Origin: a virus
Taxonomy: Duplodnaviria; Heunggongvirae; Uroviricota; Caudoviricetes
Virus record (IMG/VR): IMGVR_UViG_2875713109_000001
DNA: 64,000 nt
Strand: one strand, 5' to 3'
Under the pieces are notes generated by a model. The model worked only from the letters and a program-made list of their open reading frames with translations, ran no database searches and was not told the DNA's origin. Below, in pieces: positions 1 through 59,000 of this stretch. A program made the translations under genes and the position numbers. Numbering within the stretch: position 1 is the first letter of the stretch; each line of letters opens with the position of its first letter.

Positions 1-3000
1 TCCCTGTGGTGGCGGCCTCCCTGATTGCTGTTACCCACGATTGAGTCAGCGCGGCGAATGCATGATTCAGATTGGCTTCCCGTTCTGCTGCGATGCGCGC
101 GCTTGCTGCGTCCATTGCCTGCTTGATCTCGGCTTTATTGCTGTAAATGCCAATGGTGCCAAACTGTGCTGTGGTGATCTCATAATCTGACGCCCGGAAC
201 TCATTGGTACCGAAAATGGCATTGGTGACTTCAAGTTCAGAATCCCCGTTACGAGTAGCCCCCTGGCTTGTTTTTTCCGGCATTCTGGCGATCGCATCCG
301 CTATTTTCTCCTGAATTGCTTCAGGGGATAGCGTATCTCCGTATGACGCGATTACATCGCCATAATTGGAGCCAAACAGTTCAACCAGGAATGTTTCTGC
401 CGAACGGATCTGGCGGTTATTCCCTTCCGACATCATACCAAGCACCCATTTTGCAATTGACGACTTCAGCGCGCCGTCACGGCGATCCGGGTAAACCGCA
501 TGCTTCAGTGGGTCCGTATAGGTACCAACAAAATCAATGCTATAGCCTGACTCTGTAGTCTGAACGCCGTACGAGTCAGTGATTTTGATCATGCCGCGCT
601 GCTGGAAACGGTAGAAATCGTCACAGGAAATGATGTCGTTAATCCCGGCGATGGAGACGCCACCACTGATTTTCTGCATAACAGCATCTTCATCGGGAGT
701 TACATCCACCTGTTTATCCAGCGTCTTCACATCCCAGTTACCCGATTTGGTGCCTCTTAAGGTAAAGATGCTCTCCACGTCTGCGCGCTGGCTGTCGAAG
801 TCCAGCGACTTAATGCGAACGATATCACCGGCACAATCGTAGTATTGGCCTACACGCCATGAGCGATCGCCGATAACAAGGAACTCATTCGCATGGTTAA
901 CCAGATCAGGATCAACATCCAGAATGCCTTTATTTATTGCATCCTCCACCAGCGGGCGCAGGCGTTTGATATCCGTCGCGGCCTTCTGAGTACGGTTCAA
1001 TAATTTCTCATAGCGGGAGATGGCCTGAGAGATATTAGCCTTGCGCTGAATGGCGCTTTTCAACGACGCGCGATACTGTGCTAACAACATACGGTCTGTG
1101 TGATGGACACTCCCCCAGCGGGCCTTCCAGTCTGCGTTATCCGCTGCCTTGGCCATTGCCGCCTGTTTGAATTTAGCTACCTCGGCGGTGGTCTTTTCAA
1201 GTTCCGCTTTGCTTCGCTCTAATTCAGCGGTAAGTACCTCCACATCCTCGCCAGCTGCGTGCTGCGCCTTGATGTAGTTCTGAAGGTCGATAGTAGCCTG
1301 TTCTTTCTGGCGAGCGCGTTTCGCAGCTTTCGCCTTATCCATTTGAACCTGCATCATTGCCAGACGTTCGCCGTCATCCTTCGCGGTATACATCTGCATT
1401 TCGATCATGTCATTGGCGTCGGCGTTCTCCATTTCTGACTTATCTGAACGGAGGATATCGGAGATCCAGCCTGCTTTACGCTTCAGCGTCTTCAGTCGGT
1501 ATTCATCGAAAGACCCCTTGCCGCAGTAGTAGTGAACGCGAACGCTTGCACGGTTGGAACCAACTCGGGCACCGCGACCGTTACGCTGTGCGATACTGGC
1601 TGGTGTCCACGGCAACGTCAGGTGGTGGATATCCGTCGTTCCTCGATGCAGGTTGATACCCACCTCTGCCTTTTTGTTGCAGATGATGATCGGAGTCCGG
1701 CCCTCCTGGAAGTCGGCTGCAATCTTTTCCAGACCGCCCAACGACATTTCATTTTGCTGCGCGATATAGGCGTCATACAGAGCCATTTGCTCGTTGTATT
1801 TCGCTATCTGTGCATCTGTTGGTTCATCCGGTAGCTCTTTCGGCGGTTTAACCGCTTTCAGTTTCTTACCGGTTTTACCTGCCTCGGCAACCGTCTGAGC
1901 ATTCAGGATCCCCACCTTTGAAGGTTCAAGGTTTAGAGCATTGCAGATAATGCGCTTGAGCTTCTGGTGCTGCGTTTTTTCATCGGTGAAGATGATTTGC
2001 TTACCTTCCGGGAAAAACTCCTTCAGCGTGGCGATCAGCTTCGCGTATTTGGGCGTAACGGGGTGAGTTACGGTCTGTTCGTCAATGCCAAACCTGGCCA
2101 GGCGCTTATTCACTTCCTGCTCGAACGCTTCCGGAACCTGCAACTGAATAAACTCGCCCTTATCTATCAGGGAGTATTGCGATTGCTGCGTGATTGAATC
2201 ATCACTGTCGTCGTCTTCGCTGGTGGCTTGTTTAGGCAAACTGTCCGCCAGCTGCTGCACCGCATCGGCGTACTCCGGCAGGAAACGATAGGTGATCCGG
2301 CGATAGTACAGGTCCATGTCAGTACATACGCGGTCCATATCCCTGATTATTGAGAAGATCGGACGGGCTTTCTCGTGCTCAATCACGCCGTCTTCATTGA
2401 CCGAGGTCGTTACGCCATTGTTGGCTTTGGCCGCCGCTTCCGCCTGCTGACGCAATTCTTCATACGCCGCCAGTTGTTCTTCAGTAAGTGGTGCATCCTG
2501 CTGGTGTTCGTCCAGCTCCGGGATCTCCACGGTATCCTTAACGTCTTCCGCCGTTTTAAGCGTTACCCAGCGATGGAATATACCGCGCAGCGCATCAAGG
2601 TTTTCAAAGCCCACCAGCGCCATTTTTTCTTCAACTTCACCGCTAATTTTCTGTACCGTTTCCAGCCTGGTCTTGCCGAAGAATTTAACGAAGTCATCAG
2701 GACCGTAGATCCCCATGTTCTGCCAGTATTCCTTCGGCAGAACATGAGAAAGCATGTTGTATGCATCGATCGGGGTGTTAACGACTGGCGTTGCAGTCAG
2801 GAGAACCGGCCCGCGCCCGCCATTCTTTTTCATCAGGTACGCGTTTTTAATTGCCATATCTCGCGCCGATTGCGCCACCGCGCTGGTGGGCAGATAGGCC
2901 AGCTGTGACGCTTCGCGACCATTTTTATAGCTATTGCGGTAGTTGTGGCCTTCGTCAGCAATCACGCTGTCGAAGCCCATATCCTCAAAGTACGGATACT

Positions 3001-6000
3001 TCTCTGCTTTTTCGGTACCGGTATCTGAATACTCCGACAATACCCGGCGACGCGCGGCCTCTTTGCGGTGGGAGTCGGAATCCATTGCGCTGGCTACGCG
3101 CCCGGCGGCAACGAAGTCATAAAGCATATCCTGTGCATGCTCATCTACGGTGTCATCACGTAGCGGAATGCGGGCGTATTGTTCTTTGGTAAACACGACT
3201 GCACGGTAATTTGAGTGCGGGATCGCGTTCATCCGCGCCGTGATAGTGGCTTCATCTGCCAGCTTAAGAGCATCGCGCATAACTGGAGTGCCATCAGTAC
3301 CAAGAACAGGTTTACCGTTCTCATCGAGCACCGGCACCTGGCGAATCTGATCGCCATCCATCAGCACATCAAGACCGACGAACAGGTAGTTACTGAATGC
3401 CTCTTCACTCAGGAATTCTTTTGCTTCGTAATACCAGTTTTCCAGCACTGATTTAGGCACTACATACGCAGTACGGGTGGAGCGACCGTTCTCATAGTTG
3501 AACGCCTCAAGCGCCAGCGCGGTCGTGGTTTTACCCAGCCCGGTGCCGAAGCCCAGGATGCCGCGCCCATCTTCGGACAGTCGGCGCACCTCGCTATTCT
3601 GGTAATCAAATGGCTGGCGCTTACCGCTTAATCCCTTCAACCCAAGCGGATCGCCAGAGTGTTCATACGGGATATTGCTATTGAACACATCGTTATATTT
3701 GGCAACCAGCTCATCGTAGCGATCGTGCGTCTTGATCCACTTATTGAACTGGTCCTCAAGCAGTGCCATCTGCTCGCGGTAGCCGTTCGCCGTCGCGCTA
3801 TCTTTGCCACCGATACGCGCACCATTGAGATACTTTTCCAGCTGTGCCGGGAACCCGGTCGCGTTTTCACCTGATTTACGGTCCCACTCGTAGCGGATCT
3901 CGCCTGTTTCTTTATCCTTGCGCTGGACGACACCGTATCGGTGCCCGACGAACAGACCATCACCACCGTGATAGGTGTCAGAAACCATTTCGTCGCCTTC
4001 CAGCTGCACTGACTGCACATAGCGCAGATCCGGATAGCCGTTTTCCTGCAAAAACTCCAGAATGACGGAGCGGTCGAACCAACGGCTATTGAGCTTAAAG
4101 CGGATATTCTCTGCTGGCGTCTTGATGCGCTTCTCTTCAATCGCTGCCAGCTGATTAAGGACGTTGTTTTTTACTGGACCGTCGGGGAGTGTGGCAAGGA
4201 ATTCCTGTTTTGGAGCCACTATCTCGTTAATGTCGCCGCTGGTGGCGCGGGCAAACGGAACAATCCCGCCATACGGTGAAACCGCAATGCCAGGGGTGCT
4301 GGCCAATAAATTAAGCAACTCGTCATCACTGGCTGGCAGTTCGCCGGTAAACGCAAGGCGGAAATCATCGAGCTGGATTGGATCGCGAGTGAGATCACTG
4401 TAGAGATAACGCAGGGTGTCCTGATAGCTGGTGGAGTCATAACTGGCGCTGGAATCATGCGTAACCAGTTTTCCTGTCAGCTCGTCAGAAATAGTGCCAT
4501 CCAGCTTAATTGCACCACGGAAAGCAAACCAGGCGCGCGCACCGCTCCCCGATAATTTCGCTATCGGACCGCGGCCGGGGTTACCAAAACGGTCAATCTC
4601 TGCCTGCAAACGGGATACCAGAGAAAGGCGCTGCTGTTCGATTTGTTCAGCACTATGCCCGGCGGCCTTCATGTCCTGATATTCAATTAACATCCGGCCA
4701 ATCATCGCCCCGCGATACAAGCGTTCACGGTATTTTTCAGGCTGGCTGTTAATCCAGTCCACCAGCTGCACCATATCGTCGCTGATTGATGTGGTGTACT
4801 TATCGCGGACATTTGCCATCTGGGTAAATGTCATACCGAGACGGCCTTCTGTTGTAGTCAGGTTACGCTGAAGAGCCTCCCAGCTATCCGCGCCATAACT
4901 GGCAACATCAATCTTCAGCTCCTTCCCGGCATCAGCTTCAATCCAGCGACCACCAGCATATTTTTGCCATACGCCATTAATCAGGCGCATTTCCCCTTCA
5001 TCAACAACATCTGCGGTCGGTGACGGTTCAGCCATATCGAGCAAAGACCAGTCGATACGACTTTCGAAACGATGAATCAGCTTCGCTTTAAGAGCCTGGT
5101 TATCAATCTGCCCGTCGGCACGAACCTCAATACGCCCCTGGAATCCCTTCTCCTGAGTGCCATGAACAAACCGGCGGCCGTCCTTTTCAAACCACTTGCC
5201 AGAAATAAACGTTGGCCAAAGCACATTTGCCGATTCAAGAGTGCCTTCATCCACCAGGGGGATTTTCTCAGCCATCTCCGCCGGATGTTTGCGCATCAGC
5301 ACCACGTCAACGACCGTACTGGTCCCGTTTGCGTCAAAAGTACCGGTAGGCAAGCGGTGGGCACCAAGAAATTCAGCTTTCCGTGATAGGCGCAGGCGTA
5401 ACCGCTTCATGTTTGAACCTGAAACAATGGACGGCGGCACAATCACGCACATGAATCCGCCTGGCTTTATCTTGTCCAGCATGCGGAGCATGAAGTAAGA
5501 ACCCATGTCCGTTTCTTCTGCGTAAGGCTTATCGATGTTGCGTGTGTTATCACGACCACCGAACGGAACGTTACCCACAACATGGTCGAATGAATCGTTA
5601 GGCGTGCTTACAGCCAGTTGTTCGAACGGGGAAATCTGTACGCTGTCTTCCGGATGTAACAGCTGGTTTATACGACCGGAAACACTGCTGATCTCAGTCG
5701 CGGTCATCACCGTGCCAACCGGTTTTGTCTCATTAAAAACGCCGGTGCCCGCCGATGGTTCCAGAGTGTTACCTACGTCCGCGCCGTAGAGCTTCATGAT
5801 CTCCCAGACACCTTCAGCTATCGGCTTTGGTGTGTAATATTCGGAGACGGACCCGCCAATGCCGCCTTCACCGGTGTACCCAGCCAGGATCTGGCGCTGT
5901 TCATCTGTCAGTGTCGCGCCGTCCACCAGCGAATTAAGCAAATCTATCGCCTTCTGATTCGCCTCACGGCGCAGTCGGTCATAGCTTTTGCCTTCCACCT

Positions 6001-35229: not shown

Positions 35230-35751
35230 TTATTTCTTTTCTGGACAAGTAGCATTTGGCTGAATTCGAGTTTCATTATCTTTAGTTGAAATAAGCACAG
35301 CAAGCCCCGTTGTAAACTGGCATGCTTTACCAACTTGAGTTGAAGTGAACACCTTAGTTCCTTCTTTATAAGTCAGTGAAACACCTTCAACAATTGTTTT
35401 ATCACTAACCAAAGAACCAGCCGCTGCACCAAGAGCCGCACCACCAGTACCGCCAGCTACAGCACCCAGTGTCGATGTGCCTTTAACATTATAACCGGCA
35501 ACGCCCCCAGCAACAGCTCCCAGTACCGCACCAAATGTCTGTGCCGCTTCTTTATTAGCTTTATTATCAACTTTCACTTTAGCTGGAAGCACAGAGATAA
35601 TATTGACTGTCTTTGTTTCCTGCTTCGAATTCAATTGAGCGGTATCATAAACATCGGCAGCATAATCAGCACCGCTAGATTGACACCCAGAAAGAAGAAT
35701 TGCAGATACAACAAGAGCGCATAAAGTATACTTTTTAGACATAAGAATCAT
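35230..35751 (-). CDS. lipoprotein with glycine-zipper segment (SlyB-like)
   Basis: Lipobox LLSGC; GAVLGAVAGGVAGY...GAVAGGTGGAALGAAAGS; AT-rich. Confidence 0.6.
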   Translation of the reverse strand: MILMSKKYTLCALVVSAILLSGCQSSGADYAADVYDTAQLNSKQETKTVNIISVLPAKVKVDNKANKEAAQTFGAVLGAVAGGVAGYNVKGTSTLGAVAGGTGGAALGAAAGSLVSDKTIVEGVSLTYKEGTKVFTSTQVGKACQFTTGLAVLISTKDNETRIQPNATCPEKK

Positions 35752-51074: not shown

Positions 51075-51407
51075 TTAGTTACCTCTGATAGCGCGGTTGT
51101 AATCATTAACGTTGCGATTCTTCCTGTTAATCCCCATCAGCATCGTTTCTGTATCGAGGATATACGCTGGCAGATCATCAAAATATTCACTGCTAAACTC
51201 TGGCATCCTGCACATAAATGCACTTTTGGGGGCAGGGTGGTTAACCTTTGTCGGCGTCGGCGTTAAATTCGGTGATCGACTGCCGGAGCAACCGCTGAGT
51301 GTCAGCAGGAATGCGCTGGCGAACATTACCCGCCGCAACCAGTTGTTTCTGAACTTCAGCTTTTCGTTCCATTTGCCTGTCAGCATATTTGGCTTGTTCT
51401 GATTCAT
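51075..51407 (-). CDS. Pro-rich lipoprotein, candidate o-spanin (Rz1-like) overlapping the 3' end of the upstream gene
   Basis: Lipobox LTLSGC then SGSRSPNLTPTPTKVNHPAP; candidate ATGs at 51407 (SD AGGAAG), 51386, 51326. Confidence 0.45.
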   Translation of the reverse strand: MNQNKPNMLTGKWNEKLKFRNNWLRRVMFASAFLLTLSGCSGSRSPNLTPTPTKVNHPAPKSAFMCRMPEFSSEYFDDLPAYILDTETMLMGINRKNRNVNDYNRAIRGN

Positions 51408-51663
51408 TTTTCACTTCCTGGCTGTGAAAATGTTGCTCTGCTTTGTTCATCGTCTCAATGGTCTGGTTAAGATCCATTATTGACTTATCACGTTCCTTAA
51501 CAGCCTGATCAAGACTGCCAATTTTCTCCATGGCTTGCTTTAGCTGATGACGTTCCCATGCAAACCCAGCACCAACAAGTGTGCAAATCAGAACAAGAAC
51601 ACCAGTAGCAGCAAGTTTCTCCTTCAAAGACAAAGCTGTTTTTAACGTAGAAAAGAATGACAT
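51241..51663 (-). CDS. membrane-anchored coiled-coil protein, candidate i-spanin (Rz-like)
   Basis: ATG at 51663 with SD AGGAGGAAG; TM AATGVLVLICTLVGAGFAW then Q/E/K-rich coiled coil. Confidence 0.5.
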   Translation of the reverse strand: MSFFSTLKTALSLKEKLAATGVLVLICTLVGAGFAWERHQLKQAMEKIGSLDQAVKERDKSIMDLNQTIETMNKAEQHFHSQEVKNESEQAKYADRQMERKAEVQKQLVAAGNVRQRIPADTQRLLRQSITEFNADADKG

Positions 51664-51702
51664 GTCTTCCTCCTGAAGAAAAATTATCAATGAAGTCCTT
51701 TG

Positions 51703-52491
51703 TTACTGTGCCGCTTTGTTTAATTCATCAAGAACAGAATCAGGAACCAAAGCGGCAACTGCGCTGGCTGTGCTGACCTTATTTGCTGATGCTTCCGCAA
51801 GCGCGGTACCGATAGCATGGTTATAAGCAGTTATGGCTACGTTGGCGCTTTCATTCGCTCGTTCATACTGCTGTTGTAACGCAGTTGTGGGCGCTGTTGT
51901 CTGGTTGAAAACAACCCCAAACTGTTCAGTTGCTACTTTCAGAGATTCAATTTGCTCTTCTGTTAGTGCTGGTGGGGGAGTGGCAGTGCCGCCGCCTGAA
52001 CCAGAGCCTGACGAGCTTCCTGAGCCAGTGTTAAGGGTCTGGTTAATCTCCCCCATAGCAGCGACTAAACTTGATGTATTAAGCGCGTTAACAGCGTCCT
52101 CAAGCGATTTAGTAATATTCACATCACCAATGGCAATAGAGATCGGCAGTTCTGAAACTTCTCGCTCATTAGCACGGCAGTAAACATCCCAACCAATATC
52201 GAGTTGAAGCAGCATTGACAGATCTGCATAACCAGCCAACAGGTCCGCGTGCTTAGTTGCCAGTTCTCCAATGTTCGTTAAGCCAGTTGTGGTTGTTCTG
52301 ATCGTTGAAACATAGCTGGTAATAGTGTCGGGATAGACAATTGTATCCAGAATTAATCCGGTCAATTCTTCTGCAAGCAGTTTTGCTGTGTTAGCACTGT
52401 TTCGTGCCGATGTTATGGCACCAGGTGTTTTCATCCCACCGGCGGCGGCCAATTTTTTATATGCGGATAACTGGTAGTCTTTTTCCAGCAT
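51703..52491 (-). CDS. hypothetical protein with Ser/Gly linker
   Basis: ATG at 52491 with SD AGGAGAT; track frame opens at 52548. Confidence 0.45.
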   Translation of the reverse strand: MLEKDYQLSAYKKLAAAGGMKTPGAITSARNSANTAKLLAEELTGLILDTIVYPDTITSYVSTIRTTTTGLTNIGELATKHADLLAGYADLSMLLQLDIGWDVYCRANEREVSELPISIAIGDVNITKSLEDAVNALNTSSLVAAMGEINQTLNTGSGSSSGSGSGGGTATPPPALTEEQIESLKVATEQFGVVFNQTTAPTTALQQQYERANESANVAITAYNHAIGTALAEASANKVSTASAVAALVPDSVLDELNKAAQ

Positions 52492-52499
52492 GATATCTC

Positions 52500-52784
52500 C
52501 TAACTTACCTGAACCAGGCCGTCTCCGGACGCTACGGTAGATCCGCATGAAACAGGGTCACCAACGCATACGATCCCTTTACCATTGACGGTAAACCATG
52601 CCCTGGTTGATATAGCTTGCCCACCGTGCGTACTGTTTCCATCGGTATGCTGTGCATATTGCTTACCATCAACTAACACTTCGACTCCGTTGACTTTAAG
52701 TAGTGGTTCACTCTCTACAGGAGGCCTGGATGGGAATCCTCCGTGCCCCGAACAAATGCTGTCTTTTGTTGCAATACTTGCCAC
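52500..52784 (-). CDS. small Gly/Cys/His-containing protein, possibly PAAR-like
   Basis: GTG start with SD GGTGA; no internal Met; TVNGKGIVCVGDPVSCG segment. Confidence 0.3.
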   Translation of the reverse strand: MASIATKDSICSGHGGFPSRPPVESEPLLKVNGVEVLVDGKQYAQHTDGNSTHGGQAISTRAWFTVNGKGIVCVGDPVSCGSTVASGDGLVQVS

Positions 52785-52864
52785 GTCATCACCAATTATT
52801 TGCTCTGGTTTTCGTTATTTTAACTTAGGTTACTTGTGGTCTACATGGTGTTAACTATTAAATA

Positions 52865-57955: not shown

Positions 57956-58192
57956 ATGCAGAACAATCCGAACAAATGTCGAACGCTATGGGTGCGGTTA
58001 TATATTTATGCCGTCCTCTGTTTGATTGTGTCACTGGTTCTGTATGTTTGGCTTTTGCCAAATATGATCTCATCTAACAGCACAATACTTGTATTGTTGG
58101 GAGTCCTTCTCGCGCTCATTTACCCGGCTTTCGCAGTAGTCTTTTTTCGTGAAAAAACCAGGAAATTAATTAATGAAAAAAACGTTGATTAG
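57956..58192 (+). CDS. small two-helix membrane protein coupled to SPFH lipoprotein
   Basis: 78 aa; ATG with SD GGAGTGAGAGG; overlaps downstream start. Confidence 0.45.
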   Translation: MQNNPNKCRTLWVRLYIYAVLCLIVSLVLYVWLLPNMISSNSTILVLLGVLLALIYPAFAVVFFREKTRKLINEKNVD

Positions 58193-59000
58193 TGCAGCGA
58201 TTATTTTGGGTTCTTTATGTCTGACCGGATGCGATCGGGTAGAGCCAGGTAACGTAGGGATCAAAGTAAATAAGCTGGGGGATGATAAAGGTATCGGTGA
58301 AGTAGTTGGCGTTGGTCGCTACTGGACAGGCTTGAATACTGAAGTTTATATCTTCCCGACCTTTAAGCAAATGAAGACATACGATGAGCCGTTCAGCTTC
58401 CAGATGAGCGACGGAACAACCATTGGTTACCACATCGGCGTAGCCTACAAGGTTGATCCAGCAAAAGTCACAACGGTATTTCAGACCTATCGCAAAGGTG
58501 TAGATGATATTACTGATACCGATCTACGCCAGAAGGTTGCAGATGCTCTGAACCGGTTAGCCAGCAAAATGACCACCGACAAATTTATCGACGGTGGCAA
58601 ATCTGAATTGCTTGATGCAGCCCTTAAAGACATTCAGGAAGAAATGACGCCAATCGGCATTCAGGTGATGAGCCTCTCTTATGTAGGTAAGCCAGAATAC
58701 CCGCCAACAGTTATTGACAGTATTAACGCCAAAGTCACGGCAAACCAAAAAACCCTGCAACGCGAGCAAGAGGTCAAACAACGTGAAGCAGAGGCCAACA
58801 TGCTGCGCGCGGAAGCTGCCGGACAGGCTGATGCTATTCGCACAAAAGCCCAGGCCGAAGCTGATGCCATTCGTTTACGTGGTGAAGCTCTGCGCCAGAA
58901 CCCCGGTGTTATGGAGTTGGAAGCGATCAACAAATGGAACGGTACATTACCGCAGTATATGACCAGTAATACCGCTGTTCCGTTTGTTCCGGTGAAATAA
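58173..59000 (+). CDS. SPFH/band-7 (prohibitin-like) lipoprotein
   Basis: Lipobox LCLTGC; SPFH-like core; C-terminal coiled coil QREQEVKQREAEANMLRAEAAGQADAIR. Confidence 0.7.
   Translation: MKKTLISAAIILGSLCLTGCDRVEPGNVGIKVNKLGDDKGIGEVVGVGRYWTGLNTEVYIFPTFKQMKTYDEPFSFQMSDGTTIGYHIGVAYKVDPAKVTTVFQTYRKGVDDITDTDLRQKVADALNRLASKMTTDKFIDGGKSELLDAALKDIQEEMTPIGIQVMSLSYVGKPEYPPTVIDSINAKVTANQKTLQREQEVKQREAEANMLRAEAAGQADAIRTKAQAEADAIRLRGEALRQNPGVMELEAINKWNGTLPQYMTSNTAVPFVPVK

What the first reader, a model, noticed from the sequence alone, without database searches (positions are those of the whole stretch)
51075..51663. Overlapped i-spanin/o-spanin-like gene pair beside the plasmid origin, far from lyz and the holins
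A membrane-anchored coiled-coil protein (51241-51663) overlaps out of frame with a Pro-rich lipoprotein gene (51075-51407, lipobox LTLSGC). This is the classic Rz/Rz1 overlapped architecture. The lysis genes here are dispersed (lyz ~9.5 kb, lydA/lydB ~19.5 kb) and no spanin is adjacent to them, so this pair may be the missing outer-membrane disruption step.
Basis: partly seen in the sequence, partly recalled or inferred. Interest (0 to 1): 0.5.

Follow-up and report, generated by a model that had tools for sequence, protein, structure and literature searches.

The report
Phage P1 spanin genes ppfA/mlp
The flagged overlapping gene pair is real and is the ppfA/mlp pair of a phage P1-like prophage. 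The literature already lists it as P1's predicted two-part "spanin", the proteins thought to break the outer membrane at the end of lysis, so this is a correct rediscovery and not a new finding.

Summary
The window is a P1-like phage-plasmid, 96-99% identical to P1/P7.

- **ppfA (51241..51663, 140 aa):** strong AGGAGG ribosome-binding site, N-terminal transmembrane helix, long helical periplasmic domain.
- **mlp (51075..51407, 110 aa):** +1 frame, 167-nt overlap with ppfA, lipobox LTLSGC, Ser at +2, Pro-rich mature N-terminus.

The pair is kept in 81 of 81 P1-like loci. Three diverged lineages, down to about 29% identity, also keep it, each with a lipobox and a Shine-Dalgarno-like (purine-rich) sequence plus ATG at the same place.

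PpfA and P2 LysB hit the same PHROG (89). Mlp matches P2 LysC (BLASTP E=4e-7; PHROG 456). P2 LysB/LysC is the prototype of the "overlapped" spanin architecture.

The prediction is already published. Kongari et al. 2018, Table S1, lists P1 gp064 as i-spanin and gp063 as o-spanin, "ovl". Bednarek et al. 2022 attribute it to Summer et al. 2007 and say the function is not verified. RefSeq labels mlp "Rz-like spanin".

A CRISPRi knockdown scored both genes non-essential for plaque formation.

Verdict: observation confirmed, interpretation supported, already known, low interest.

The parts
51241..51663 (-). ppfA, the predicted i-spanin: 140 aa, type II inner-membrane protein with a helical periplasmic domain
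   Evidence: ORF and translation. 96-98% identical to P1/P7 PpfA. PHROG 89 'Rz-like spanin' E=5.9e-25, the same PHROG as P2 LysB. AF2 gives helix 3-110, a break, then helix 120-138. Listed as P1 gp064 'OIS' in Kongari 2018 Table S1.
51559..51615 (-). Coding region for the PpfA N-terminal transmembrane helix (aa 17-35; contains the protein's only Cys)
   Evidence: Kyte-Doolittle 19-residue maximum of 2.2 at aa 17-35. Kongari Table S1 notes 'one in TMD' and 0 periplasmic Cys.
51669..51674 (-). Shine-Dalgarno AGGAGG of ppfA
   Evidence: The sequence upstream of the ATG is ...TTCAGGAGGAAGAC|ATG. The same RBS is quoted in Kongari Table S1.
51075..51407 (-). mlp, the predicted o-spanin: 110-aa prolipoprotein with a 71-aa mature outer-membrane lipoprotein, in the +1 frame relative to ppfA
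   Evidence: ORF. PHROG 30284 E=1e-75 and PHROG 456 (the P2 LysC family) E=3.3e-5. BLASTP against P2 LysC gives 35% identity over 68 aa, E=4e-7. Intact in 81 of 81 P1-like loci and in JK004, L087 and L090. RefSeq product name is 'Rz-like spanin'. Listed as gp063 'OOS' in Kongari Table S1.
51288..51299 (-). Lipobox L-S-G-C (Mlp aa 37-40). Cys40 is the predicted lipidated residue, and Ser at +2 predicts outer-membrane sorting.
   Evidence: Translation. The lipobox Cys is invariant in the alignment of four Mlp lineages plus P2 LysC. Kongari Table S1 records a LipoP cleavage site at position 39.
51414..51419 (-). Shine-Dalgarno AGGAAG of mlp, lying inside ppfA codons Q-E-V
   Evidence: A Shine-Dalgarno-like sequence followed by ATG sits at the same position in the window, P1, JK004 and L087 (AGGAAG/AGGAGG), and more weakly in L090 (GAGG).
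51241..51407 (-). 167-nt region coding in two frames: the PpfA C-terminus and the Mlp signal peptide, lipobox and Pro-rich start
   Evidence: Frame offset of 1 and overlap of 167 nt. A single G-to-C difference from P1 changes both PpfA S131T and Mlp A46P.
50637..50657 (-). Terminator-like hairpin just after upfA; probable 3' end of the upfC-upfB-ppfA-mlp-upfA transcription unit, immediately before oriR
   Evidence: Nine-pair stem with 5 G-C pairs followed by a T-run. This is a pattern match only.
51703..52784 (-). Upstream genes on the same strand: upfB (51703..52548) and upfC (52500..52784, PAAR-like). Probably co-transcribed with the spanin pair.
   Evidence: ORFs. P1 annotation and gene order. 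upfC against the Pfam PAAR motif scores 26.4 bits, E=8.5e-6, against a cutoff of 27. The upfC-upfB-ppfA order is kept in the distant relative L087.

Best explanation
The pair is the two-component spanin of a P1-like phage, in the overlapped (P2 LysB/LysC-type) gene architecture.

PpfA is inserted in the inner membrane by its N-terminal helix. Its roughly 100-residue helical domain extends into the periplasm.

Mlp is translated from its own ribosome-binding site and ATG inside ppfA, in the +1 frame. It is then lipidated at Cys40, cleaved by signal peptidase II and sorted to the outer membrane, since Ser at +2 gives no retention signal.

The two periplasmic domains bind end to end, forming a bridge across the periplasm that is threaded through the peptidoglycan mesh. 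When the P1 holins (LydA/LydC/LydD) trigger and the SAR endolysin Lyz degrades the wall, the complexes are free to move sideways and change shape. They then fuse the inner and outer membranes, removing the last barrier to release of the phage.

Shown here:
- the ORFs, the frame relationship and the ribosome-binding sites;
- the membrane and lipoprotein signals;
- the helical prediction;
- conservation of the pair;
- similarity to LysB/LysC.

Inferred from the lambda Rz/Rz1 model:
- complex formation;
- the dependence on endolysin;
- the membrane-fusion step.

Timing of expression is unknown. P1 annotation gives only predicted sigma-70 promoters inside upfB, and I found only a weak late-promoter-like box upstream of upfC.
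For: 1. Identity. The region is 96-99% identical to P1/P7 and carries the genes ppfA and mlp.

2. Class-defining features are present. These are an N-terminal TMD plus a helical periplasmic domain with a break at GNVRQRIPA, and a lipobox with Ser at +2 followed by a Pro-rich mature N-terminus. The two genes are adjacent and overlap on one strand.

3. Homology.
- PpfA hits PHROG 89 at 5.9e-25, and P2 LysB hits the same PHROG at 5.8e-61.
- The distant PpfA relatives P0102 and P0108 independently hit spanin PHROGs 89, 739 and 214 at 1e-7 to 4e-5.
- Mlp against LysC by BLASTP gives E=4e-7.
- Mlp and its distant relatives hit the LysC PHROG 456 at 3e-5 to 9e-5, and LysC hits the Mlp PHROG 30284 at 5e-4.
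- The best NCBIfam hits are LysB and LysC respectively, though both are below cutoff.

4. Conservation of the pair.
- 81 of 81 P1-like loci keep a 110-aa Mlp ORF with its lipobox.
- JK004 (59% PpfA identity), L087 and L090 (~29%) keep a +1-frame 109-111-aa lipoprotein ORF with a lipobox, C66 and the C-terminal motifs.
- A Shine-Dalgarno-like sequence plus ATG sits at the same place in each.
- In L087 and L090 only 4-5% of synonymous recodings of the i-spanin gene keep the +1 frame open.

5. A weak relative, P0119, sits just after two holin-like membrane proteins. It is followed by a separate 92-aa lipoprotein gene, which is a lysis-cassette-like context.

6. No other candidate exists. Only three lipobox ORFs occur in the window. 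The other two are an SPFH-domain lipoprotein with Asp at +2 and a glycine-zipper/TraT-like lipoprotein without a C-terminal TMD.

7. Literature. Kongari 2018 Table S1 lists P1 gp064/gp063 as an overlapped i-/o-spanin pair. Bednarek 2022 names ppfA and mlp as the P1 spanin genes.
Against: - There is no experimental test of function. Bednarek 2022 says so explicitly.
- In a CRISPRi screen, knockdown of ppfA gave an efficiency of plating of 1.3/1.2 and mlp 0.24/0.19, both scored non-essential. In the same study lambda Rz gave 5e-4/0.15 and P1 lyz 0.05/0.0035. Knockdown is incomplete, and spanin defects are condition-dependent, so this weakens the claim without refuting it.
- The curated family models are not met. 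Pfam Phage_lysis (Rz) and Pfam LysC give no hit. TIGR03495 LysB scores 18 bits against a cutoff of 92.75, and NF038368 scores 12.8 against 27.
- Profile-profile comparison of the PpfA and LysB families reaches only E=2.7e-4 with 42% probability, over the TMD and first helix.
- The pair is not in a lysis cassette, and no late promoter is annotated for it.
- The Mlp signal peptide is unusually long at 39 aa. Kongari flags it as 'Too long signal sequence'.
- For the P1 and JK004 sequences, openness of the +1 frame is not in itself significant: 55% and 80% of synonymous recodings stay open.
Confidence: 0.8

Rival explanations
1. The pair modulates the timing of lysis, as in the older 'lysis regulatory protein' reading of P2 LysB/LysC, and does not itself disrupt the outer membrane.
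For: The original P1 GenBank note for mlp reads 'possibly involved in regulation of lysis (by homology)'. P2 lysB and lysC are annotated 'nonessential; affects timing of lysis' and 'regulation of lysis'. Many database names still read 'LysB family phage lysis regulatory protein'. CRISPRi knockdown had little effect on plating.
Against: The topology is exactly what a periplasm-spanning complex needs: an inner-membrane anchor plus an outer-membrane lipoprotein. The spanin literature reinterprets LysB/LysC as the prototype overlapped spanin (PMC6139136). A delayed-lysis phenotype is what a spanin defect produces in shaken cultures.
Confidence: 0.07
2. The genes are envelope functions expressed from the prophage, for example a surface- or superinfection-exclusion or serum-resistance-type lipoprotein with a membrane partner. 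This would fit their position next to the plasmid maintenance region.
For: The pair lies about 0.4-1 kb from oriR/repA and far from lyz and the holins. Only sigma-70 promoters are predicted for it in the P1 annotation, with no Lpa late promoter. Phages commonly carry lysogenic-conversion lipoproteins. Knockdown does not affect plaque formation.
Against: All family-level matches are to spanin families, and none is to Bor, Cor, Llp or TraT-type families. The overlapped i-/o-spanin arrangement is conserved over large divergence. The upstream gene of the same unit, upfC, is PAAR-like, which is a virion-type late function. The weak relative P0119 lies in a lysis-cassette-like context.
Confidence: 0.08
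3. The long mlp frame is not translated. Only a short non-overlapping ORF starting at Met65 (46 aa, no lipobox) is real, as several GenBank records annotate, so there is no lipoprotein partner.
For: MH422554, MH445380/1, JL22 and JK004 annotate only a 45-46-aa CDS downstream of ppfA. PHROG 15803 is built from such 46-aa entries. Given the PpfA protein sequence, the +1 frame stays open by chance in 55-80% of recodings for the P1 and JK004 sequences.
Against: The signal peptide, the lipobox and a Shine-Dalgarno-like sequence plus ATG are conserved in four lineages down to 33% Mlp identity. The alignment to P2 LysC begins in the signal peptide and includes the lipobox. In L087 and L090 the frame is open against 4-5% odds. 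Kongari et al. note that gene callers systematically miss overlapped o-spanin genes (PMC6139136).
Confidence: 0.03

Closest known systems
Phage P1 / P7 ppfA (gp064) and mlp (gp063)
   Same: This is the same locus. It shows 96-98% protein identity, the same coordinates relative to repA/oriR/upfA/upfB, and the same overlap. It is already catalogued as the P1 overlapped i-spanin/o-spanin pair (Kongari 2018 Table S1; Bednarek 2022).
   Different: Only a few substitutions: PpfA A28T, I45M, E128Q and S131T; Mlp S7N, V32A, A46P and S108R relative to NC_005856.
Phage P2 LysB / LysC (prototype overlapped two-component spanin)
   Same: Same architecture and sizes: LysB 141 aa and LysC 96 aa with a 146-nt overlap, against 140 aa, 110 aa and 167 nt here. 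LysB shares PHROG 89 with PpfA. LysC and Mlp cross-hit each other's PHROGs and align at 35% identity, including the lipobox and a conserved Cys-x-Met-Pro motif.
   Different: P2's pair sits in the lysis cassette directly after the holin, endolysin and lysA genes, whereas P1's is unlinked and lies next to the plasmid origin. PpfA and Mlp fall below the curated LysB and LysC model cutoffs. The LysB periplasmic domain has two invariant Cys (C120, C126 in alignment A2), while PpfA has none. Mlp carries a 27-residue N-terminal extension before the signal h-region.
Phage lambda Rz / Rz1
   Same: Same predicted topology and presumed mechanism: a type II inner-membrane helical protein plus a small Pro-rich outer-membrane lipoprotein encoded in the +1 frame of the same DNA.
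   Different: Lambda's Rz1 is fully embedded in Rz. There is no detectable sequence homology: Pfam Phage_lysis gives no hit for PpfA, and hhalign gives E=0.028 with 1.7% probability. Lambda Rz has periplasmic Cys that form disulfide-linked dimers, and PpfA has none.

Membership tests
Two-component spanin (functional class; criteria of Summer 2007 / Kongari 2018) | i-spanin: N-terminal transmembrane domain (type II) followed by a periplasmic domain that is predominantly alpha-helical or coiled-coil | tested here: met
   Kyte-Doolittle maximum of 2.2 at aa 17-35. AF2 gives helix 3-110, a break, then helix 120-138, with mean pLDDT 72.
Two-component spanin (functional class; criteria of Summer 2007 / Kongari 2018) | o-spanin: signal peptidase II signal with a lipobox Cys, no inner-membrane retention residue (Asp) at +2, and a small mature protein | tested here: met
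   LTLSG|C with Ser at +2 and a 71-aa mature protein, of which 6 of the first 30 residues are Pro. The Cys is invariant across lineages. Caveat: the signal peptide is 39 aa, which Kongari flags as 'Too long'.
Two-component spanin (functional class; criteria of Summer 2007 / Kongari 2018) | The two genes are adjacent on one strand in an embedded, overlapped or separated arrangement | tested here: met
   Overlapped, +1 frame, 167 nt. The same arrangement is found in JK004, L087 and L090.
Two-component spanin (functional class; criteria of Summer 2007 / Kongari 2018) | Location in or next to the lysis cassette (usual, not obligatory) | tested here: not met
   lyz and lydA/lydB lie about 41 and 31 kb away in the window. 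[quoted passage not shown]
Two-component spanin (functional class; criteria of Summer 2007 / Kongari 2018) | Required for outer-membrane disruption; the i- and o-spanins form a periplasm-spanning complex | not testable with these tools
   No experiment is published. CRISPRi knockdown scored both genes non-essential for plaques.
P2 LysB family (NCBIfam TIGR03495; PHROG 89) | Score at or above the curated cutoff of the LysB equivalog model | tested here: not met
   18.2 bits against a cutoff of 92.75, E=0.0024; it is nevertheless the top hit. At PHROG level the match is significant (PHROG 89, E=5.9e-25). hhalign of PpfA family against LysB family gives E=2.7e-4 with 42% probability.
P2 LysC family (NCBIfam NF038368 P2_Rz1; Pfam PF23793 LysC; PHROG 456) | Score at or above the curated cutoff of the LysC model | tested here: not met
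   NF038368 scores 12.8 bits for the window protein and 18.9 bits for JK004, against a cutoff of 27. Pfam LysC gives no hit at E<=1. Remote similarity is still supported by BLASTP E=4e-7 and PHROG 456 E=3.3e-5.
Lambda Rz family (Pfam PF03245 Phage_lysis) | Match to the Rz profile | tested here: not met
   PpfA gives no hit at E<=1, whereas lambda Rz itself scores 183 bits. hhalign gives E=0.028 with 1.7% probability.

The most novel reading that the evidence does not exclude
The P1 spanin pair may be transcribed separately from the rest of the lysis programme. It could come from sigma-70 promoters in an operon shared with a PAAR-like virion protein next to the plasmid origin. The complex could then already be present in lysogens or early in infection, and it may be dispensable or redundant for P1 lysis under many conditions. 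That would make P1 a natural case of a pre-positioned, unregulated spanin, or of a spanin pair recruited to another envelope role.
Probability: 0.12. Interest if true: 0.4.

Novelty: already known. Interest (0 to 1): 0.12.

Why it matters
This result matters little beyond correct annotation. It confirms that this P1-like prophage carries a full set of lysis functions spread over at least three loci: endolysin, holins and antiholins, and a spanin pair.

It also shows that several public records annotate the o-spanin wrongly, either as a truncated 46-aa ORF without the lipobox or not at all.

The open question is experimental and is already recognised in the field: do ppfA and mlp really carry out outer-membrane disruption in P1, and when are they expressed?

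Tried and rejected
- **Pfam** scan of both proteins gave only weak coiled-coil noise for PpfA and nothing for Mlp.
- **tblastn** against 50,697 phage records found only P1-family relatives.
- **Word-indexed protein search** likewise found only P1-like relatives.
- **Full HMMER search of 1.84 billion representatives** added only three full-length distant relatives (P0102, P0108, P0119), plus fragments and coiled-coil noise.
- **hhalign of the PpfA profile against single LysB or Rz sequences** was not significant. Family against family was marginal.
- **PDB sequence search** gave nothing below E=0.16.
- **Late-promoter search.** A weight matrix built from five annotated P1 Lpa-dependent promoters recovers the known sites in the window. 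Upstream of upfC it gives only a 9.2-bit partial match. That match is weaker still in P1 itself and absent in JK004, so I do not claim a late promoter.
- **Synonymous-recoding test.** Openness of the +1 frame is not significant for the P1 and JK004 sequences (55% and 80% open). It is significant only for L087 and L090 (5% and 4%). The argument for translation of mlp therefore rests on conserved signals and protein-level conservation, not on frame openness.
- **Unimolecular spanin alternative.** I rejected this for the two other lipoproteins in the window.
- **Papers not held.** The Lobocka 2004 and Summer 2007 papers are not in the library. Their content is cited only through GenBank notes and through Bednarek 2022 and Kongari 2018.

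Full report
**What the window is.** The region around the finding is 96-99% identical to phage P1, P7 and other P1-like phage-plasmids. The neighbouring 286-aa ORF at 49493..50353 (-) is RepA. By collinearity with NC_005856, the minus-strand gene order is upfC, upfB, ppfA, mlp, upfA, oriR, repA. The two flagged ORFs are therefore P1 ppfA (gp064) and mlp (gp063).

**Checking the observation.**

ppfA is 51241..51663 (-), 140 aa.
- Its ATG follows AGGAGG.
- Residues 17-35 are the hydrophobic maximum.
- The rest is rich in Q/A/K/E/R.
- AlphaFold2 on a 15-sequence alignment predicts helix 3-110, a break at GNVRQRIPA, then helix 120-138. Confidence is modest (mean pLDDT 72), as expected for an isolated coiled-coil monomer.

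mlp is 51075..51407 (-), 110 aa.
- Its ATG follows AGGAAG.
- It has a positively charged n-region, the h-region VMFASAFLLTL and the lipobox LSG|C.
- Ser at +2 predicts outer-membrane sorting.
- The mature protein is 71 aa, Pro-rich at its start, with one more Cys at position 66.

The genes overlap by 167 nt, with mlp in the +1 frame.

A six-frame scan finds only three lipoprotein-signal ORFs in the whole window, so the pairing is not a chance pattern. The other two are not spanin candidates:
- an SPFH/Band-7 lipoprotein with Asp at +2;
- a glycine-zipper/TraT-like lipoprotein without a C-terminal TMD.

**Are both frames real?**
- All 81 full-length P1-like loci retrieved keep a 110-aa Mlp ORF with the lipobox.
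- Three diverged lineages keep a +1-frame 109-111-aa ORF with a lipobox (LTLSAC or LSLSSC), the second Cys and the C-terminal motifs FMCxMPxF, DLxxYI and NxKNxxVNxYN. These are Cronobacter phage JK004 (59% PpfA identity), a ~92-kb P1-like contig (L087, ~29%) and a short metagenomic contig (L090, ~29%).
- A Shine-Dalgarno-like sequence plus ATG sits at the same position in all of them. JK004 and L087 have no alternative ATG before the lipobox, which supports the long start.
- A synonymous-recoding control shows that openness of the +1 frame alone is unremarkable for the P1 and JK004 sequences (55% and 80%). It is unlikely for L087 and L090 (5% and 4%).

The case for translation rests mainly on the conserved signals and on protein-level conservation.

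**Family relationships.** Curated models are not met.
- Pfam Phage_lysis (Rz) and Pfam LysC give no hit.
- NCBIfam LysB and LysC models are the top hits for PpfA and Mlp respectively, but both are far below or below cutoff.

At the remote-homology level the links are consistent.
- PpfA hits PHROG 89 at 5.9e-25, and P2 LysB is in the same PHROG at 5.8e-61.
- Mlp hits PHROG 456 (the LysC family) at 3.3e-5, and LysC hits the Mlp PHROG 30284 at 5e-4.
- Mlp and LysC align at 35% identity over 68 residues (E=4e-7), from the signal peptide through the lipobox and a conserved Cys-x-Met-Pro.
- The distant PpfA relatives, which cannot be members of the PHROG training set by identity, still hit spanin PHROGs 89, 739 and 214.
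- Family-against-family hhalign is marginal: E=2.7e-4, 42% probability, covering the TMD and first helix only.

P2 LysB/LysC has nearly the same gene sizes and overlap, and it is the textbook 'overlapped' spanin (PMC6139136).

One weak relative, P0119, lies directly after two multi-TMD holin-like genes. It is followed by a separate 92-aa lipoprotein gene, which is a lysis-cassette-like context.

**What is already known.**
- Kongari et al. 2018 (PMC6139136), Table S1, lists P1 NC_005856 as 'ovl'. gp064 is the overlapped i-spanin: 140 aa, 0 periplasmic Cys, 'one in TMD'. gp063 is the overlapped o-spanin: 110 aa, 71 mature, 39-aa signal flagged 'Too long signal sequence', LipoP cleavage at 39.
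- Bednarek et al. [quoted passage not shown] That text swaps the i- and o- labels. The sequence and Kongari's table show that PpfA is the i-spanin and Mlp the o-spanin.
- RefSeq calls mlp 'Rz-like spanin'. The original GenBank note already said 'possibly involved in regulation of lysis (by homology)'. Several other P1-like records call the pair Rz/Rz1.

**Functional data.** The only data found are from a CRISPRi screen (PMC10695390).
- ppfA gave an efficiency of plating of 1.3/1.2 and mlp 0.24/0.19. Both were scored non-essential.
- In the same study lambda Rz gave 5e-4/0.15 and P1 lyz 0.05/0.0035.
- The top agar contained 5 mM Ca2+ and 5 mM Mg2+.

This argues against a strict requirement for plaque formation. 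However, knockdown is incomplete and spanin phenotypes depend on conditions, so it does not refute the model.

**Expression.** The P1 annotation gives only predicted sigma-70 promoters inside upfB and no late promoter for this unit.

I built a weight matrix from five annotated Lpa-dependent promoters; the -22 box consensus is AAGTGACTT.
- It recovers the known sites in the window.
- Upstream of upfC it finds only a partial match (52817..52835, 9.2 bits, one of 17 such positions in the window).
- That match is weaker in P1 itself, absent in JK004, and present in a different form in L087.

The result is inconclusive. A terminator-like hairpin follows upfA at 50657..50637. upfC is PAAR-like, a virion-type gene, which hints at late expression.

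**Mechanism.** The most likely mechanism is that of lambda Rz/Rz1 and is inferred, not shown.
- PpfA in the inner membrane and lipidated Mlp in the outer membrane form a periplasm-spanning complex, which the peptidoglycan mesh restrains.
- Once Lyz degrades the wall, the complex fuses the two membranes.
- PpfA has no periplasmic Cys. Mlp has one, conserved in all lineages and in LysC, so any covalent dimerisation would be on the o-spanin side.

**Verdict.** It reproduces a published, still untested prediction. Novelty: already known. Interest: low.

Noticed in passing
window 52817..52835 (-), upstream of upfC (GTG start at 52784): There is a partial match to the P1 Lpa-dependent late-promoter motif: AAGTAACCT-AAGT-TAAAAT against the consensus AAGTGACTT-N4-TAnnAT. 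It scores 9.2 bits, where true sites score 19-24, and only 17 of 127,964 window positions reach this score. The match is weaker in P1 proper, absent in JK004, and L087 has AAATGACTG-GATC-CATACT at the same place. No late promoter is annotated here in NC_005856.
   Followed up: partly
window 50637..50657 (-): A terminator-like hairpin (9 pairs followed by a T-run) lies immediately after the upfA stop codon and just before oriR. It probably insulates the plasmid origin from transcription of the upfC-upfA unit.
   Followed up: no
window 52500..52784 (-) (upfC): The first gene of the unit that carries the spanin pair matches the Pfam PAAR motif at 26.4 bits, just under the cutoff of 27, with E=8.5e-6. 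The P1 note likens it to T4 gp5.4. A tail-spike-tip-like gene would then share an operon with lysis genes.
   Followed up: partly
window 51291..51407 (-) (Mlp aa 1-39); L003 3260..; L087 6278..; L090 576..: The o-spanin precursor has an unusually long, basic stretch of about 27 residues before the hydrophobic core of its signal peptide. The length of this stretch and the Shine-Dalgarno-like sequence plus ATG at its start are kept in four diverged lineages. It therefore looks like a real feature and not a mis-called start. Its role is unknown.
   Followed up: partly
L002 (MH422554) 1957..2097; L003 (JK004) 3458..3592: Several public P1-like records annotate the o-spanin as a truncated 45-46-aa ORF starting at Mlp Met65. 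That ORF lacks the signal peptide and lipobox. PHROG 15803 ('lipoprotein', 46 positions) appears to be built from such truncated calls. OP279344 and vB_EcoM-673R5 do not annotate mlp at all.
   Followed up: partly
window 51272 (-), = ppfA nt 392 / mlp nt 136: A single G-to-C difference from P1 NC_005856 changes both proteins at once: PpfA S131T and Mlp A46P. This illustrates the coupled evolution of the two frames.
   Followed up: yes
window 35230..35751 (-): A 173-aa lipoprotein (lipobox LLSGC) has a central glycine-zipper segment. It weakly matches TraT (23 bits against a cutoff of 31) and the glycine-zipper 2TM domain. It lies in the part of the genome where P1 has the variable sim (superimmunity) genes and may be a surface- or superinfection-exclusion function.
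   Followed up: partly
window 58173..59000 (+) (P1 plp): The 'putative lipoprotein' Plp is an SPFH/Band-7 domain protein (Pfam 107.6 bits). It has a lipobox and Asp at +2, which predicts retention in the inner membrane.
   Followed up: partly
Literature: PMC9025707, Introduction: Bednarek et al. 2022 label ppfA as the o-spanin and mlp as the i-spanin. The sequences and Kongari 2018 Table S1 show the reverse.
   Followed up: yes
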